Below, piece after piece: positions 16,790 to 56,035 of a stretch of DNA of 64,000 nucleotides (positions are counted from its first letter, which is position 1; the number at the start of each line of letters is the position of its first letter). The stretch is from positions 21,216,001 to 21,280,000 of the forward strand of contig CP086569.2 in NCBI GenBank assembly GCA_009914755.4. Direction: 5' to 3'. Source of the DNA: the human T2T-CHM13v2.0 reference genome, Homo sapiens. The notes under the pieces are model-generated. The model saw only the letters and a program-made list of their open reading frames with translations. It was not told where the DNA came from and did not search any database. The position numbers and the translations under genes were made by a program.

Positions 16790-17720
16790 TTCTAGAGTGT
16801 TTCTTCCAATATATATTTAGATGTGGGACTTTTTTTTCCAGTATAAACTCTTTGGTGTTTTCTAAGGTGTATGTTGTGGGCAAAGTTCCCACCACATTTC
16901 TTATATATGTAGCGGTTCACTTCTATAGAAATTCTCTATTGAGTAATATATAGGTGGCAGTTAAAGCTTTTTCTAACTTCTTTACATTTGTAAAATTTCT
17001 CTTCAATATAAATAACATGGTGTTCTCTAAGGCATATATTTTGAATAATAGTTTTTCCAAGATCATTACCTGTTTAGGTTTTTATATAACGCCAGATTCT
17101 AACTTTGAATAATATGTGAGCATTAGTTCTCACATTTGCCTTTCTTTACACTTGCAGAGTTTCTAAATAGTATGAATTATCTTGATTTTAGTAAGCTCTG
17201 AAAACTGGGTTAGAGCTTTCCAGGATTATTCACATGTGTATAGATTTTCTAAACGGCATAGTTTGAATGCCAATTAAAGGCTTTGCTCCATTTTTTATAA
17301 TTGCAGGATATCTCTCCAAAATGGATTCCCAAATGCTGTGTAAGGGTCGAATAGTAGTTAAAGAATTTGCCACATTCTTTACACTTGAATTTTTAGGATA
17401 AATTTTCATTTGAACTGAGATGTAATAATTGACTAAAATTTTTTTCACGTTTATTACATTTATTTGAGTTTTCTTTAACATGAATTTCTTCATTTTTTGC
17501 AAGTCCTGAGAACTGGTTAAAAATTTACCATATTTATTTTATTCAAAATGCTTCTCTTGAATATGAATACCAGATGAACAATAAATTTTGAGAATTGATG
17601 AAAGACTTTCACCATTCTCTTGTATTTGTAATGATTCTTTAGAAAATGAGTAATCTCATGTTTACTAAAATTTTTGACATGGATAAAGTTTTTATTATCT
17701 TCATTACAAAAGGCATATTT
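16790..17720 (-). pseudogene. Heavily decayed C2H2 zinc-finger (KRAB-ZNF-like) array remnant in antisense orientation
   Basis: Antisense finger-linker motifs recur every 80-84 bp: ttacatttgtaaaatttctcttcaatataaat (16982), ttacacttgcagagtttctaaatagtatgaatt (17142), tcacatgtgtatagattttctaaacgg (17230), ataattgcaggatatctctccaaaatggatt (17310) and ctttacacttgaatttttaggataaatt (17393). These mirror the rc consensus acatttgtaaggtttctctccagtatgaatt. Minus ORF 17230-17502 translates to degenerate finger-like peptide (KIYPKNSSVKNVANSLTTIRPLHSI...). There are many stops and no intact gene. Confidence 0.55.
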
Positions 17721-17835
17721 TAGAAATTGGTGTTGATATGTTCTCTCACATATTTTGAGGTCAGGAGTTTGAGACCAGCCTGACAAATACGGTGAAACGG
17801 AGTCTCTGCACAGTTCTGTGGAAATAGCTGACACA

Positions 17836-18149
17836 GCTGTGCATGGTGGCTCACGTCTGCAATCCCAGCACTTTGGGAGGCCAAGGCGGGCAGATCATGA
17901 GGTCAGGAGATCGAGACCATCTTGGCTAACACGGTGAAACCCCGTCTCTACTAAAAAATACAGAAAATTAGCCGGGCGTGGTGGCTGGGGCCTACAGTCC
18001 CAGCTTCTTGGGAGGCTGAGGCAGGAGAATGGTGTGAACCGGCCAGGCGGAGCTTGCAGTGAGCCGAGACCGCACCACTGCACTCCAGACTGGGCGACAG
18101 CGTGAGACTCCGTCTCAAAAAAAAAAAAAAAAAAAAAAAGAAAGAAAAA
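17836..18149 (+). mobile_element. Full-length Alu (young, Y/S-like) with a 15-bp target-site duplication
   Basis: It runs from gctgtgcatggtggctcacgtctgcaatcccagcactttgggaggccaaggcgggcagatcatgaggtcaggagatcgagaccatc to ctgggcgacagcgtgagactccgtctc plus a long poly-A. The flanking direct repeat is gaaatagctgacaca at 17821-17835 and 18150-18164. A partial Alu piece also lies at about 17755-17815. Confidence 0.9.
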
Positions 18150-18189
18150 GAAATAGCTGACACAAATGAAGGTTTCTTTTGAAATATTC

Positions 18190-52639: not shown

Positions 52640-53160
52640 TTTTTTGATTTCTTGATAGTGGCCATTTGGATGAGTATAATATGGTATGTTATTTTGGTTT
52701 TTTTTTCATTTTTTTCTAAAAAGTGGTCATTTTTCAAATTAATGTTGACTATATGTTATTTTTGAAGAAATCTCTGCTCATTTTTTTGTCCATTTCTTTA
52801 AACATTGTTGTTCACTTGTTGTTGTTAAACTTTTTGCAGTTATTTACATATCCTAGATATTATCTCCTGTCAAACATATGGTTTTAAAATACTTTGTCCA
52901 ATTCTTTGATGTAATTTTTATACCACTAAATGTTTCTTATGACAGGCACAAGTTTAAATTAATGTAGTACCATTTTAGTGTTCTCTTTGTTGCATATGAA
53001 GTTGATATCAAATCCAGAAAACATTGCCAAGATCTATATTATAACTTGTACCATATATTTTCTTTGAAAATTTGTAGAGTTTTAGTTGTTACATTTCACT
53101 GTGTAATCTATTAAAAACAGTTTTTCATATGTTTTGGAGACAAAGTCTAAACTCAAAATT
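52640..53160 (-). mobile_element. Possible old L1 fragment, antisense
   Basis: Weak colinearity with the antisense L1 ORF2 end: gtggccatttggatgagtataatatggtatgttattttgg...gaagaaatctctgctcatttttttgtccatttctttaaacattgttgttcacttgttgttgttaaactttttgcagttatttacatatcctagatattatctcctgtcaaacatatggttttaaaatactttgtccaattc. Confidence 0.35.
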
Positions 53161-55289
53161 TCCTAAGTAGAATATTGTTTCCCAACTTAATACACTGAAG
53201 AGAATTTCTTTTTCTTATTGTGTGATTACAGCAGCTCTGTGGAACATCATTTGATCATACACACAAGGGTTTATTTTTCTGGTTCTCTGTTCTGTTTCAT
53301 CATCTACTTTGCTGGTCTTTCTGTCAGTACTGCATTGTTATATTATTTCTATAGCCTACTAATCTGTTCTGAAATAGGAAGCGTGGGGCTTCTAATTTTA
53401 TTTTCTTTGGCTGTTTGGGCTACTCATAGTCCTTTGAGATTCTATATAAATTTAAAACTTGTTAAAATACTTCTGTAAATAACTCTCAGATTTTCATAGG
53501 GATTACATTGCATTTAAAAGACACCATGGATTGTATTTACATCTAAATAATATTAAATCTACTTACTCTTATTGAAGAGTGTGTTCAAGAGTTTAAGTTT
53601 CACATATGTATTAATTTGTCAGTATTGCTTTTGCTATTTTTACTAGTTTAATTTCATATGACCAGCGAAGACACATTGCATGATTTAGTCTTATTAAAAA
53701 TAATTAGTATTTTTTAGTGTTATAACAGATTGTCCATGAAACCACAACTATTTATTTTCTCTTCTCTATGCACCTGACAGAGTCCAATCCACTTTCTTTT
53801 TCCAAAACTTTATTTCAGGTATCTTACATAAATGGAACCATATATAGTATTTATCACTTTCTGCCTATCTTTTCACATAGCACAATGACCTCAATACATA
53901 TTTTTATTGTGAATATAACAAAAATTATTGCTCTCTAAAAGTTGAGTAATATTTAATTATTCATATATCTATATTTCTCAATATATTTTTCAAGAAAAGC
54001 TGGGTTCTTTCCACTTATTGATTTATGTGAATAATGCTACAATGAATACAGATGTGTAAATAACTTTATTTTACCCTATATACAAGAATTTATTTGCTGT
54101 ATTATGTTTCATTGATGTATTTACCTGTCTTTATTTTAGTACCAAAGTATGTTGATTACTATAGCCTTATAATATGTTTTTAGACCAGGAATTATGATGC
54201 CTCCAATGATGTTTCCCTTTTTGACAATGGTTGAGTTCTGGTCTCTTCAGATTTAATAGAGTTTACATAATTGCTATTTATATTAATGCAAAAAGTGAAT
54301 ACCTGTTATTTAAAGTATACCACCCTTTCCTTAAGCACTCTGTCAGTGGAGACAAAAACCAATATTTGAGCATTTATCTAAAAACCAGAAATGTACATAC
54401 ACATACCACTTTTCTTTTTCTCTCCCTTGGAAGCAACATAGAGTTGGAAGTTTCTCTTAATTTCACCATGCTGTACTTGGAGGAGGTAAGGCTGTGTTAG
54501 GTATATGAGACTAACTTTTCTTTCTAAATGAAACATTTTGTTGTTTTATACCCTTTTGGTCTTGCAAATATTTATCTGCTTTTTAGAGTTTCTACAAAGA
54601 CCATTAGATCAGTATAGAGTTAAGTTGATATACCTAAGATAAAATGAGAGCCACTTATTATATTTGTAAAGTATATTCAACTAAATCTGGTATGTGGGAT
54701 TTATTTTTATTTTTATTACTTTTGGTTTTGTGTAATTTGTACAACCAAAGTCTTTCACCAAAGCTAGCCATAGAAGGTTAATTTCAAAAAGTAATACTGG
54801 GAAAATATGCAAGCTGTGGCCTCAAAAATTTACATTGTAAAAAACTGGGAAAGATTAGGTGAAGATGAAGAGAAGAAATAATACCATAATACATATTATC
54901 AATTTGTCCCAATTCTCATAACAAAAATTTAAGTGCCAAAGGATATCAGGAACACAGAATATTTTAGAAAAAAAACTCAATTTATTTTGGCTACTTTTAA
55001 AGAACCACGTGTTTCTATAAACATGTATCAACATCATTTTTGAAATACACCTATCATAATAAAATTAGCAAAAAAGGAAACCTTTATGGCTCAAACATTG
55101 ATAAACACCAAAGTACTAATTTTCCAAAGAATTATTACAATTGCAATAATTCATAAAATTATTTTGTTAGATCTCAAAACTTATTATCTATCAGTGTATT
55201 CATCTTTAAGAGAAGCCTTAAAATAGTAATGAGTGATAAAAATTTTAACGGTCTTCAGAACATCTAAATTTCAAATAATTCATGTTAGA

Positions 55290-56035
55290 ACATACACAGA
55301 TGTAATAAATGCAGGAAAGCCTCTATTCACTTATTACTCAATAATTGAACCTTTAGTCAAATTATTATTAGAGAAAAATTCAAATGTAAAAAAAATTTGG
55401 CAATTATTTTAAAAAGCACTTAAACCCTACACAGCTTTACATCTCTTAATATTAGGCAGAAATTCAAATGCTAAAAAAATTGGCAAATCTTTTAACTGGC
55501 ACTCAATCCTTAAACAACATCAAAAAATCCATATAGGTGAGAAATTACAAATGTAAAAAATGTTGCAGGTCTTTATCCAGTATGCTCACCTTACATGATG
55601 TCAGAGAATCTGTACTGGTAAGAAATGCTGCAAATTTACAGAACGTGGCAAAGCCTTTAACTGTTTCTTAAACCTTATATATAAGAGAATTTATGCTGGA
55701 AAGAAGCTCTACAAATGTAAAAAAGTATAGTAAAGCCTTCAACAACTTTTAAAATTCTAGTGTACATCAGAAAATTTGTAATGGAGAGAAACCACCCAAA
55801 TGTAAAAATTGTGTCAAATATGCTAGCAGTATGCACACCTTACAGAACCTCAGAGAATGCATAGTACACCTTACACAGTATCAGAGAATGTATACAGGAG
55901 GAAAGCCCTATAAATGTGTATAAAGTTGCATAGCTTTTAACACACGTTCAAATTCTACTCAGAATCAGATAATTTATTTTAAAAAGAAATACAACAAATG
56001 TAATGAATGTGACATACCTTTCATTCATTTCTTTC
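55290..56035 (+). pseudogene. Heavily decayed C2H2 zinc-finger (KRAB-ZNF-like) array remnant in sense orientation
   Basis: Sense finger motifs (consensus yacaaatgtgaagaatgtggcaaagcctttaac) recur every 82-100 bp: aaatgcaggaaagcctct (55308), ttcaaatgtaaaaaaaatttggcaattatttt (55380), ttcaaatgctaaaaaaattggcaaatcttttaac (55462), ttacaaatgtaaaaaatgttgcaggtctttatcc (55546), caaatttacagaacgtggcaaagcctttaac (55631), ctctacaaatgtaaaaaagtatagtaaagccttcaac (55714), ccacccaaatgtaaaaattgtgtcaaat (55793), ccctataaatgtgtataaagttgcatagcttttaac (55896) and tacaacaaatgtaatgaatgtgacatacctttcat (55989). Interleaved helix remnants include catcagaaaatttgtaatggagagaaacc. There are many stops. Confidence 0.55.

What the first reader, a model, noticed from the sequence alone, without database searches (positions are those of the whole stretch)
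16790..56035. Two decayed KRAB-ZNF-like zinc-finger arrays in opposite orientation bracket a 38-kb retroelement cluster
A cryptic 84-bp periodicity with C2H2 finger-linker motifs is present on the minus strand at 16790-17720 and on the plus strand at 55290-56035. Both are AT-decayed far beyond function, with dozens of stops. Their opposite orientation about 38 kb apart raises the possibility that they are the two ends of an ancient inverted duplication or palindrome arm pair, later filled by L1 and Alu insertions. Alternatively they are two independent relics of a tandemly duplicated ZNF cluster. Neither would be found by ORF-based annotation.
Basis: seen in the sequence. Interest (0 to 1): 0.5.

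Follow-up and report, generated by a model that had tools for sequence, protein, structure and literature searches.

The report
Two decayed KRAB zinc-finger pseudogenes, head-to-head
Two long-dead copies of a KRAB zinc-finger gene lie in opposite orientation about 30 kb apart in AT-rich primate DNA full of L1 and Alu insertions; they are ordinary gene fossils, and nothing shows they are the arms of a palindrome.

Summary
A C2H2 finger consensus hits only two places in the window: 16828-17524 (-) and 55473-56022 (+), with E 1e-11 to 1e-15 and no hits in reversed controls. Both relics are larger than reported. R1 spans about 16760-18345 (-) and is split by an Alu. R2 has last-exon remains at 54725-56555 (+), split by an L1 fragment, and a KRAB-A box relic 5.4 kb upstream at 49256-49324 that passes Pfam's KRAB threshold. 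R2 is therefore an unprocessed, intron-bearing pseudogene. Its spacer matches the ZNF91/ZNF92/ZNF679-type clade. The two relics align colinearly over 911 columns, including non-finger spacer, at 69.6% identity (K2P 0.39), so they are true paralogues. The palindrome reading is not supported. No mirrored homology exists outside the last exon. In-frame stops and frameshifts are not shared. L1 debris next to both copies has the same genomic orientation. The two 93-95% identical full-length L1s between them are independent insertions; their mirror symmetry with the ZNF pair looks coincidental. Best reading: an ancient local duplication of one KZNF gene, early loss of constraint, independent neutral decay, then retroelement invasion. 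Low interest; a known kind of object.

The parts
16760..17748 (-). R1, distal part of the last (zinc-finger) exon. It holds 11 recognisable 84-bp-type units (17714-16825; lengths 84, 83, 83, 75, 84, 65, 84, 80, 84, 81, 87) and a short 3' end. One intact C2H2 finger lies at 17389-17321.
   Evidence: tblastn E 7e-12. Unit segmentation. Pfam zf-C2H2 at 22 bits, below threshold. Alignment to R2.
17749..18149 (+). Alu sequences inserted into R1's exon: a fragment at 17749-17812 and a full Alu at 17840-18145.
   Evidence: nhmmer with a window Alu, E 1.4e-59 and 2e-7. The R1/R2 alignment resumes on the far side.
18150..18345 (-). R1, remnant of the non-finger spacer at the 5' part of the last exon. 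It is truncated upstream by an L1 fragment.
   Evidence: 18315-18151 aligns to R2 54840-54996 at 70% identity, SW score 89 against shuffles 31 +/- 3.5. nhmmer E 4.9e-5.
18346..18873 (-). Old L1 3' fragment that cuts off the start of R1's last exon.
   Evidence: nhmmer against L1-A, E 3.6e-20, L1 positions 5349-5891.
49256..49324 (+). R2, KRAB-A box relic (FQGLDTAQ*KLCSDVMLGNYRYL), 5.4 kb upstream of R2's last exon on the same strand.
   Evidence: Pfam KRAB 24.4 bits against a cut-off of 20.4, E 2.3e-5. Family HMM E 8.6e-4. tblastn with several (not independent) ZNF91-type family members, E down to 0.006, up to 70% identity over 20-23 aa.
49325..54724 (+). Former intron(s) of R2, now largely old L1 debris (49855-51527, 52350-53568, 54096-54213, all on the - strand). 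No KRAB-B relic was detected.
   Evidence: nhmmer with L1-A. HMM search of the six frames.
54725..55059 (+). R2, start of the last exon. The spacer VLCNLYNQSLSPKLAIEG*FQKVILGKYASCGLKNLHCKK matches the clade motif [40 protein letters not shown]. A T-rich tract lies just upstream.
   Evidence: Family HMM E 1.4e-6. tblastn gives 34-49% identity to ZNF98-like, ZNF735, ZNF429-like, ZNF737-like and others; in the listed top-40 HSPs of the screen of 122 KZNF N-termini, only this clade hits here. Sequence.
55060..56029 (+). R2, proximal finger units (about 11 units). One 114-bp unit carries a roughly 30-bp internal duplication.
   Evidence: tblastn E 1e-11 to 1e-15. Unit segmentation.
56030..56175 (.). 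(TTTC)n and a short L1 3'-end fragment inserted into R2's finger array.
   Evidence: Sequence. nhmmer hit at 56059-56133 (-), E 3.6e-4.
56176..56555 (+). R2, distal finger units (about 4) and the 3' end. This part lies outside the reported coordinates.
   Evidence: 56193-56482 aligns to R1 17183-16897 at 66% identity, SW score 145 against shuffles 34 +/- 5. nhmmer E 2.5e-11. HMM hit at 56172-56315.
27208..33232 (+). L1-A, a full-length L1 inserted into A-rich low-complexity DNA. An 8-bp candidate target-site duplication AAATGAAG lies at 27200-27207 and 33230-33237. Not part of either pseudogene.
   Evidence: Sequence. Self-blastn. nhmmer.
39622..45911 (-). L1-B, a near-full-length L1 that starts at L1 position 12. 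It is 93-95% identical to L1-A but has unrelated flanks, so it is an independent insertion.
38408..39623 (-). L1-C, a 1.2-kb L1 ORF2 fragment that abuts L1-B's poly-A tail.

Best explanation
R1 and R2 are two non-functional, unprocessed pseudogenes of one KRAB-C2H2 zinc-finger gene lineage of the ZNF91/ZNF92/ZNF679-type clade. They sit head-to-head, with their 5' ends facing each other.

The most likely history has four steps.
1. An ancient local duplication of a KZNF gene, the usual way KZNF clusters grow, left two copies in opposite orientation. This step is inferred.
2. Both copies lost constraint at about the time of the split or soon after. This is inferred from the lack of a codon-position effect together with the lack of shared stops.
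3. Each then decayed neutrally and independently toward the local 30% GC, picking up its own stops, frameshifts, unit deletions or gains, and its own Alu or L1 insertions. This step is shown.
4. The DNA between and inside them was later filled by L1, Alu and A-rich low-complexity sequence, including two independently inserted full-length L1s. This step is shown.

The relics have no present function. They are not the arms of a palindrome in any detectable sense.
For: Finger arrays are real and confined to these two loci.

R2 is unprocessed. A KRAB-A relic above Pfam's threshold lies 5.4 kb upstream on the same strand. The clade-specific exon-4 start is at 54725-54847, HMM E 1.4e-6.

The two copies are paralogous across the whole last exon.
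- 17742-16981 against 55020-55806: 69% identity, SW score 312 against shuffles 39 +/- 6.
- nhmmer E 5e-25, with colinear continuation past the Alu (18295-18150 to 54856-54997) and past R2's L1 insert (17184-16875 to 56192-56495).
- With the insertions removed: 911 columns, 69.6% identity, K2P 0.39.

Decay was independent.
- R1 has 6 and R2 has 9 in-frame stops, none in the coding frame of both. By contrast, 23 of 52 out-of-frame stop triplets are shared.
- Unit lengths differ: 83, 75, 65, 80 in R1 against 76, 77, 114 in R2.
- R2 has 16 units and R1 has 11.
- The insertions differ: Alu in R1, L1 fragment and (TTTC)n in R2.

Divergence looks neutral. It is 0.31, 0.30 and 0.25 at codon positions 1, 2 and 3.

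Evidence against palindrome arms.
- No mirrored non-exon match at nhmmer E<0.01.
- L1 debris next to both copies lies on the same genomic strand.
- L1-A and L1-B have different 5' ends, and their flank alignments do not exceed shuffles.
Against: - No KRAB exon was found for R1 in 18.9-24.4 kb on the - strand. Its unprocessed status is therefore only inferred from its homology to R2.
- In-register specificity within the finger part is weak: diagonal about 64% against off-diagonals 57-62%. Identity to a generic finger consensus (67%) is close to the R1-R2 identity, so sisterhood against other clade members is not demonstrated.
- The codon-position and shared-stop tests rest on small numbers: about 80 sites per class and 6-9 stops.
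- K2P 0.39 implies a very old split, older than the oldest Alus by simple scaling. From memory, that sits uneasily with the usual primate-expansion dating of this clade.
- The ZNF pair and the L1 pair have nearly the same mirror axis: coordinate sums are 72764-73151 and 72875-73130. I treat this as coincidence.
Confidence: 0.8

Rival explanations
1. Fossil palindrome. One large inverted duplication, with arms of about 19 kb and an axis near 36.5 kb, created both copies. Everything except the last exon has since diverged or been overwritten by retroelements.
For: - The copies lie in opposite orientation.
- Homology is colinear over the entire last exon, including unique spacer.
- Divergence is neutral at all codon positions, as expected if both copies were non-functional from about the time of the split.
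- The two L1s are mirrored about almost the same axis as the ZNF pair.
- The window may lie on the human Y, where palindromes are common. This rests on the 125-bp array and the DYZ19 description read.
Against: - No mirrored similarity exists outside the exon, although a 142-bp segment of equal divergence is detectable.
- R2's KRAB-A has no counterpart on the R1 side.
- L1 debris flanking both copies has the same, not mirrored, orientation.
- L1-A and L1-B differ at their 5' ends (position 1 against position 12), and their flanks are unrelated.
- 93-95% L1 identity against 69.6% ZNF identity is incompatible with a single event.
- In-frame stops are not shared.
Confidence: 0.1
2. Two cousins. 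R1 and R2 descend from two already-diverged neighbouring genes of an old tandem KZNF cluster and are not each other's closest relatives. Their opposite orientation reflects cluster architecture or a later inversion.
For: - R1-R2 identity (69.6%) is barely above each copy's identity to a generic finger consensus (67%).
- The finger-unit matrix shows only a weak diagonal.
- Unit numbers differ, 11 against 16.
- No intron or flank homology is detected.
- Disabling mutations are not shared.
Against: - Third codon positions show no excess divergence, which functional divergence before death should have left.
- The colinear alignment includes the 5' spacer and both ends of the array.
Confidence: 0.1
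3. Processed (retrotransposed) pseudogenes inserted independently in opposite orientations.
For: KZNF mRNAs do give rise to retrocopies. No KRAB was found for R1.
Against: - R2's KRAB-A relic is 5.4 kb upstream of the finger exon rather than fused to it.
- A T-rich tract precedes the exon-4 start.
- No poly-A tail follows either 3' end.
Confidence: 0.03

Closest known systems
Unprocessed pseudogenes of the ZNF91/ZNF92/ZNF679-type KRAB-ZNF clade. Living members retrieved here include ZNF735, ZNF92, ZNF138, ZNF679, ZNF737, ZNF431, and ZNF98-, ZNF429-, ZNF723- and ZNF273-like proteins.
   Same: - KRAB-A box, then a long last exon.
- The exon opens with the clade's 'CSHF.[16 protein letters not shown]' spacer, followed by degenerate and then canonical 28-codon C2H2 units.
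   Different: - Far more decayed than typical annotated relatives: 34-42% amino-acid identity, 2-7 stops and 2-8 frameshifts per copy.
- GC has dropped to about 30%.
- No KRAB-B was found in either copy, and no KRAB at all for R1.
- The nearest living gene cannot be named from a 40-aa spacer match.
Y-chromosome and other genomic palindromes or inverted repeats, whose arm pairs are kept similar by gene conversion (from memory).
   Same: Two homologous segments lie in opposite orientation around a spacer. The window possibly lies on Yq11.222 next to a DYZ19-like array.
   Different: - Homology is limited to one exon.
- Identity is 69.6% rather than above 99%.
- No mirrored flanks.
- The interior elements are independent insertions.
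ZNF736P Y-linked pseudogenes of the green amplicon (PMC4370482).
   Same: ZNF pseudogenes of the same broad clade, reported on the human Y.
   Different: Those copies arrived with a recent transposition from the 7q11 ZNF cluster into an amplicon. They should therefore be much less diverged (inference). Nothing links R1 or R2 to that amplicon.

Membership tests
KRAB-C2H2 zinc-finger gene (as a pseudogene) | Tandem 28-codon (84-bp) C2H2 units with TGEKP-type linkers | tested here: met
   tblastn E 1e-11 to 1e-15 at both loci only, with clean controls. R1 has 11 units and R2 has 16. Lag-84 autocorrelation z=3.8 in R1; peaks at lags 83-84 in R2. Single-finger Pfam models are only sub-threshold.
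KRAB-C2H2 zinc-finger gene (as a pseudogene) | KRAB box upstream on the same strand | tested here: inconclusive
   Met for R2: 49256-49324, Pfam KRAB 24.4 bits against a cut-off of 20.4. Not found for R1.
KRAB-C2H2 zinc-finger gene (functional) | Open reading frame through KRAB and fingers | tested here: not met
   19-43 stops per raw frame. 2-7 stops and 2-8 frameshifts in frame-corrected alignments. Longest ORF is 105 aa.
ZNF91/ZNF92/ZNF679-type clade | Clade-specific spacer at the start of the last exon | tested here: met
   R2 54725-54847 against an HMM of 18 clade N-termini: E 1.4e-6. In the listed top-40 HSPs of the 122-protein screen, only clade members hit there. R1 matches only through DNA homology to R2. 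The comparison set was fetched with a clade-type bait, so other subfamilies were not sampled evenly.
Palindrome / inverted segmental duplication | Mirrored, colinear homology along both arms, including non-coding DNA | tested here: not met
   nhmmer of 46-60 kb against 10.3-26 kb finds only last-exon segments in mirrored order; all other hits are Alu or L1. L1 debris lies on the same strand on both sides. No repeat library was available for masking.
Palindrome / inverted segmental duplication | Uniform arm-to-arm divergence and shared pre-duplication lesions | tested here: not met
   ZNF pair 69.6% against L1 pair 93-95%. L1 flanks are unrelated. In-frame stops are not shared.
Processed pseudogene | Intronless fusion of KRAB and finger exons, a poly-A tail and target-site duplications | tested here: not met
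   KRAB-A lies 5.4 kb from the finger exon in R2. No poly-A tail at either 3' end.
DYZ19 flank, human Yq11.222 (genomic context) | Large array of 125-bp, LTR12B-derived units | tested here: inconclusive
   4-10263 is 82 copies of a 125-bp unit with 89% matches. The period matches the published description (PMC2588610). No DYZ19 or human reference sequence was available to compare.

The most novel reading that the evidence does not exclude
The pair is the last recognisable trace of an ancient inverted duplication (a fossil palindrome) beside a DYZ19-like satellite on a primate Y chromosome. Its arms stopped converting and decayed to about 70% identity, and the near-identical mirror axis of the two L1s is not a coincidence.
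Probability: 0.07. Interest if true: 0.35.

Novelty: new member of a known kind. Interest (0 to 1): 0.12.

Why it matters
It matters little. Deeply decayed KZNF pseudogenes are common by-products of the birth-and-death evolution of KZNF clusters in primate genomes. If the window is the DYZ19 flank of the human Y, the relics add a small historical note: an old KZNF gene pair once lay there and died early. Otherwise the case is useful mainly as a worked example. Opposite orientation and a shared mirror axis do not make a palindrome. Shared-lesion and flank tests can separate the readings.

Tried and rejected
1. Protein database search with a stitched R2 translation returned only 3 uninformative KZNF hits, because the word index needs exact 5-mers. 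I then used a clade-type bait written from memory, only to fetch real proteins.
2. Ranking 123 proteins by best tblastn HSP did not separate subfamilies, because the finger repeats dominate the score. Restricting to N-terminal spacers did separate them.
3. Search for R1's KRAB: tblastn, family HMM and DNA alignment of R2's KRAB-A region against rc(18400-27200). The alignment scored 31 against shuffles 33 +/- 3. Nothing was found.
4. A three-way L1 comparison (A, B, C) to test whether A and B are duplicates is uninformative without an outgroup. Branch lengths are about 2.3%, 2.5% and 3.4%. I relied on the 5' ends and flanks instead.
5. The shift-register test with free end gaps was confounded by sliding. 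I replaced it with a unit-by-unit matrix.
6. An apparent shared TAA at the first Cys of one degenerate finger (R1 17541, R2 55219) depends on an alternative, less parsimonious gap placement. I did not count it.
7. Rfam at gathering thresholds gave 0 hits in the window.
8. Literature searches for DYZ19 with 'zinc finger', and for ZNF885P, ZNF886P and ZNF839P1, gave nothing relevant.
9. The 40-aa spacer match cannot name a nearest living gene, and a dead gene has no structure to predict.

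
Full report
**Context.** The window is primate-type DNA. It holds many Alus and L1s and has GC of 0.22-0.46. Positions 4-10263 are a tandem array of 82 copies of a 125-bp unit. That period matches the published description of DYZ19, a 246-kb array of 125-bp LTR12B-derived repeats at human Yq11.222 (PMC2588610). I had no reference sequence to confirm this, so the Y location is an inference.

- tblastn with an eight-finger C2H2/TGEKP consensus gives E = 7e-12 at 17524-17261 (-) and 9e-11 at 17124-16828 (-). 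It gives 1e-11 to 1e-15 at 55473-56022 (+). Every other hit in the window has E >= 0.9.
- A reversed window and a reversed query each give no hits at all.
- The 84-bp periodicity is weak but measurable. In R1, lag 84 is the top autocorrelation lag at 0.377 against 0.300 +/- 0.020 (z = 3.8). In R2 the peaks are at lags 83-84 and 165-166. Three control regions show nothing. None of the listed TRF rows is an 84-bp array; 15 rows were not shown.
- GC is 0.29-0.31.
- Raw frames carry 19-22 stops in R1 and 35-43 in R2.
- A frameshift-aware protein-to-DNA alignment to real KZNF proteins gives 34-42% identity over 166-283 residues, with 2-7 in-frame stops and 2-8 frameshifts.
- No ORF exceeds 105 aa.
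- Pfam's single-finger models are only sub-threshold. zf-C2H2 scores 22 bits against a cut-off of 25.2, from the one intact finger FKCKECGKFFNYYSTLTQHLGIH at 17389-17321. R2 gives only zf-H2C2_2 at E = 3e-4 in a stitched translation. The signal lies at array level, not single-domain level.

**True extent and anatomy.** Both relics are larger than reported.
- R1 is interrupted by Alu sequences at 17749-17812 and 17840-18145. Beyond them, 18315-18151 still aligns to R2 54840-54996 at 70% identity, SW score 89 against shuffles 31 +/- 3.5 (nhmmer E = 4.9e-5). An old L1 fragment at 18346-18873 then cuts the exon.
- R2's last exon begins at 54725. The translation VLCNLYNQSLSPKLAIEG*FQKVILGKYASCGLKNLHCKK matches the spacer that opens the last exon of ZNF735, ZNF98-like, ZNF429-like, ZNF737-like, ZNF679 and related proteins at 34-49% identity. 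An HMM of 18 such N-termini gives E = 1.4e-6. In the listed top-40 HSPs of the screen of 122 KZNF N-termini, only that clade hit this stretch.
- At 56030-56175, a (TTTC)n run and a short L1 3' fragment interrupt R2's array. Beyond it, 56193-56482 aligns to R1 17183-16897 at 66% identity, SW score 145 against shuffles 34 +/- 5 (nhmmer E = 2.5e-11).
- Segmentation against a generic 84-nt finger gives 11 units in R1 (17714-16825) and 16 in R2 (55060-56520).
- A KRAB-A box relic lies at 49256-49324 (+), 5.4 kb upstream of R2's last exon: FQGLDTAQ*KLCSDVMLGNYRYL against [23 protein letters not shown]. Pfam KRAB scores 24.4 bits against a cut-off of 20.4, E = 2.3e-5. The family HMM gives E = 8.6e-4.
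- R2 is therefore an unprocessed, intron-bearing pseudogene. Its former intron space now holds L1 debris at 49855-51527, 52350-53568 and 54096-54213.
- No KRAB relic was found for R1.

**Are the two copies direct paralogues?** Yes, at the level of the gene.
- rc(R1) aligns to R2 from 17742/55020 to 16981/55806 at 69% identity, SW score 312 against shuffles 39 +/- 6. nhmmer gives E = 5e-25.
- With the Alu and the L1 insert removed, one local alignment spans 18315-16981 against 54840-55806. It has 911 columns, 69.6% identity and 41 gap events. The K2P distance is 0.39.
- The alignment includes unique, non-repetitive spacer, so it is not just finger-to-finger similarity.
- Within the finger part, register specificity is weak. 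In-register units average about 64% identity and off-register units 57-62%. Each copy is also 67% identical to a generic finger consensus. I therefore cannot show that R1 and R2 are each other's closest relatives among all clade members.

**Palindrome arms or not?** Five tests speak against extended arms.
1. nhmmer of 46-60 kb against 10.3-26 kb, both strands, E < 0.01, finds only last-exon segments in mirrored colinear order. Everything else is Alu or L1, even though a 142-bp exon piece at the same divergence was detected.
2. The L1 debris next to the 5' side of each last exon lies on the same genomic strand (-) on both sides. It is not mirrored.
3. R1 has 6 and R2 has 9 stops in the inferred coding frame, and none lies in the coding frame of both copies. 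By contrast, 23 of 52 out-of-frame stop triplets in R1 are conserved in R2. Frameshifting unit lengths also differ.
4. The two full-length L1s are 93% identical overall and 95% in the ORF2 3' part. L1-A (27208-33232, +) starts at L1 position 1, sits inside A-rich low-complexity DNA and has an 8-bp candidate target-site duplication, AAATGAAG. L1-B (45911-39622, -) starts at L1 position 12, and its flanks differ. Flank alignments do not exceed shuffles: 51 against 42 +/- 6 upstream and 54 against 50 +/- 7 downstream. They are independent insertions of one L1 subfamily.
5. 93-95% identity for the L1 pair and 69.6% for the ZNF pair cannot come from one event.

The ZNF pair and the L1 pair are mirrored about nearly the same axis. 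Coordinate sums are 72764-73151 and 72875-73130. Given the five tests above, I treat this as coincidence, and I flag it.

**When and how?** Divergence between the copies shows no codon-position effect: 0.31, 0.30 and 0.25 at positions 1, 2 and 3, with about 80 sites each. Most of the divergence therefore accrued without coding constraint. Together with the absence of shared stops, this places loss of function near the time of the split. The numbers are small. A K2P of 0.39, about 0.2 per lineage, exceeds the divergence of the Alus in the window from each other, which are 74-82% identical pairwise. The split therefore looks very old. I cannot reconcile this precisely with the commonly quoted primate age of the clade (from memory). 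A high local or male-biased mutation rate, or an older origin of the clade, are possible explanations.

**Best explanation (confidence 0.8).** Two head-to-head, unprocessed pseudogenes descend from one ancient local duplication of a KZNF gene of the ZNF91/ZNF92/ZNF679-type clade. Both lost constraint early. Each decayed independently toward local AT-richness and was invaded by retroelements.

**Rivals.**
- Fossil palindrome: 0.1.
- Two cousins from already-diverged cluster neighbours: 0.1.
- Processed pseudogenes: 0.03.

**Novelty and interest.** This is a familiar kind of object. Whether these two relics are already annotated could not be checked, because no human reference or annotation was available. 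Literature searches found Y-linked ZNF736P copies in the green amplicon (PMC4370482). Those are a different and presumably much younger set. Interest is low, at 0.12.

Noticed in passing
window 4-10263: A tandem array of 82 copies of a 125-bp unit, 89% matches, running off the left edge of the window. Period and scale fit the published DYZ19 satellite of human Yq11.222, which is LTR12B-derived. That would place the window on the Y chromosome. The array ends at about 10263, next to an L1 fragment at 10295-10735.
   Followed up: partly
window 48204-48934: An AT-rich near-palindrome of about 730 bp. The outer arms (48204-48391 and 48751-48934) are 89-97% complementary, and the centre is a (TA)n-rich core. 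It lies about 320 bp upstream of R2's KRAB-A relic. It resembles palindromic AT-rich repeats (from memory). Not analysed further.
   Followed up: partly
window 25330-27207 and 33238-36100: About 4.7 kb of A-rich low-complexity DNA (GC down to 0.22, AT skew up to +0.44) made of degenerate AAATA/GAAAA-type motifs. The full-length L1-A insertion splits it in two. Its origin is unknown.
   Followed up: no
window 27208-33232 and 39622-45911: Two full-length L1s lie tail-to-tail and are 93-95% identical. They are mirrored about almost the same axis (coordinate sum about 73000) as the two ZNF relics. Their flanks and 5' ends show they are independent insertions, so the symmetry looks coincidental.
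   Followed up: yes
window 41371-41657: A 142-bp unit is tandemly duplicated (2.0 copies, 91% matches) inside L1-B.
   Followed up: no
window 38200-38416: A GC-rich segment next to the L1-C fragment looks like an LTR12/HERV9-LTR-type sequence. This is recognised from memory only. It may be of interest because DYZ19 is said to derive from LTR12B.
   Followed up: no
window 17389-17321 (-): One C2H2 finger in R1 (FKCKECGKFFNYYSTLTQHLGIH) still has all four zinc ligands and an open frame, although every neighbouring unit is broken.
   Followed up: partly
protein P0005 (marmoset LOC118142847 / 'ZNF429-like'), residues 1-30: This database protein's predicted N-terminus (GWMRWLTPVIPVLWEAKAGGSRGQEIE) matches Alu elements throughout the window. 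It is probably an Alu-derived exon or a gene-model artefact.
   Followed up: no
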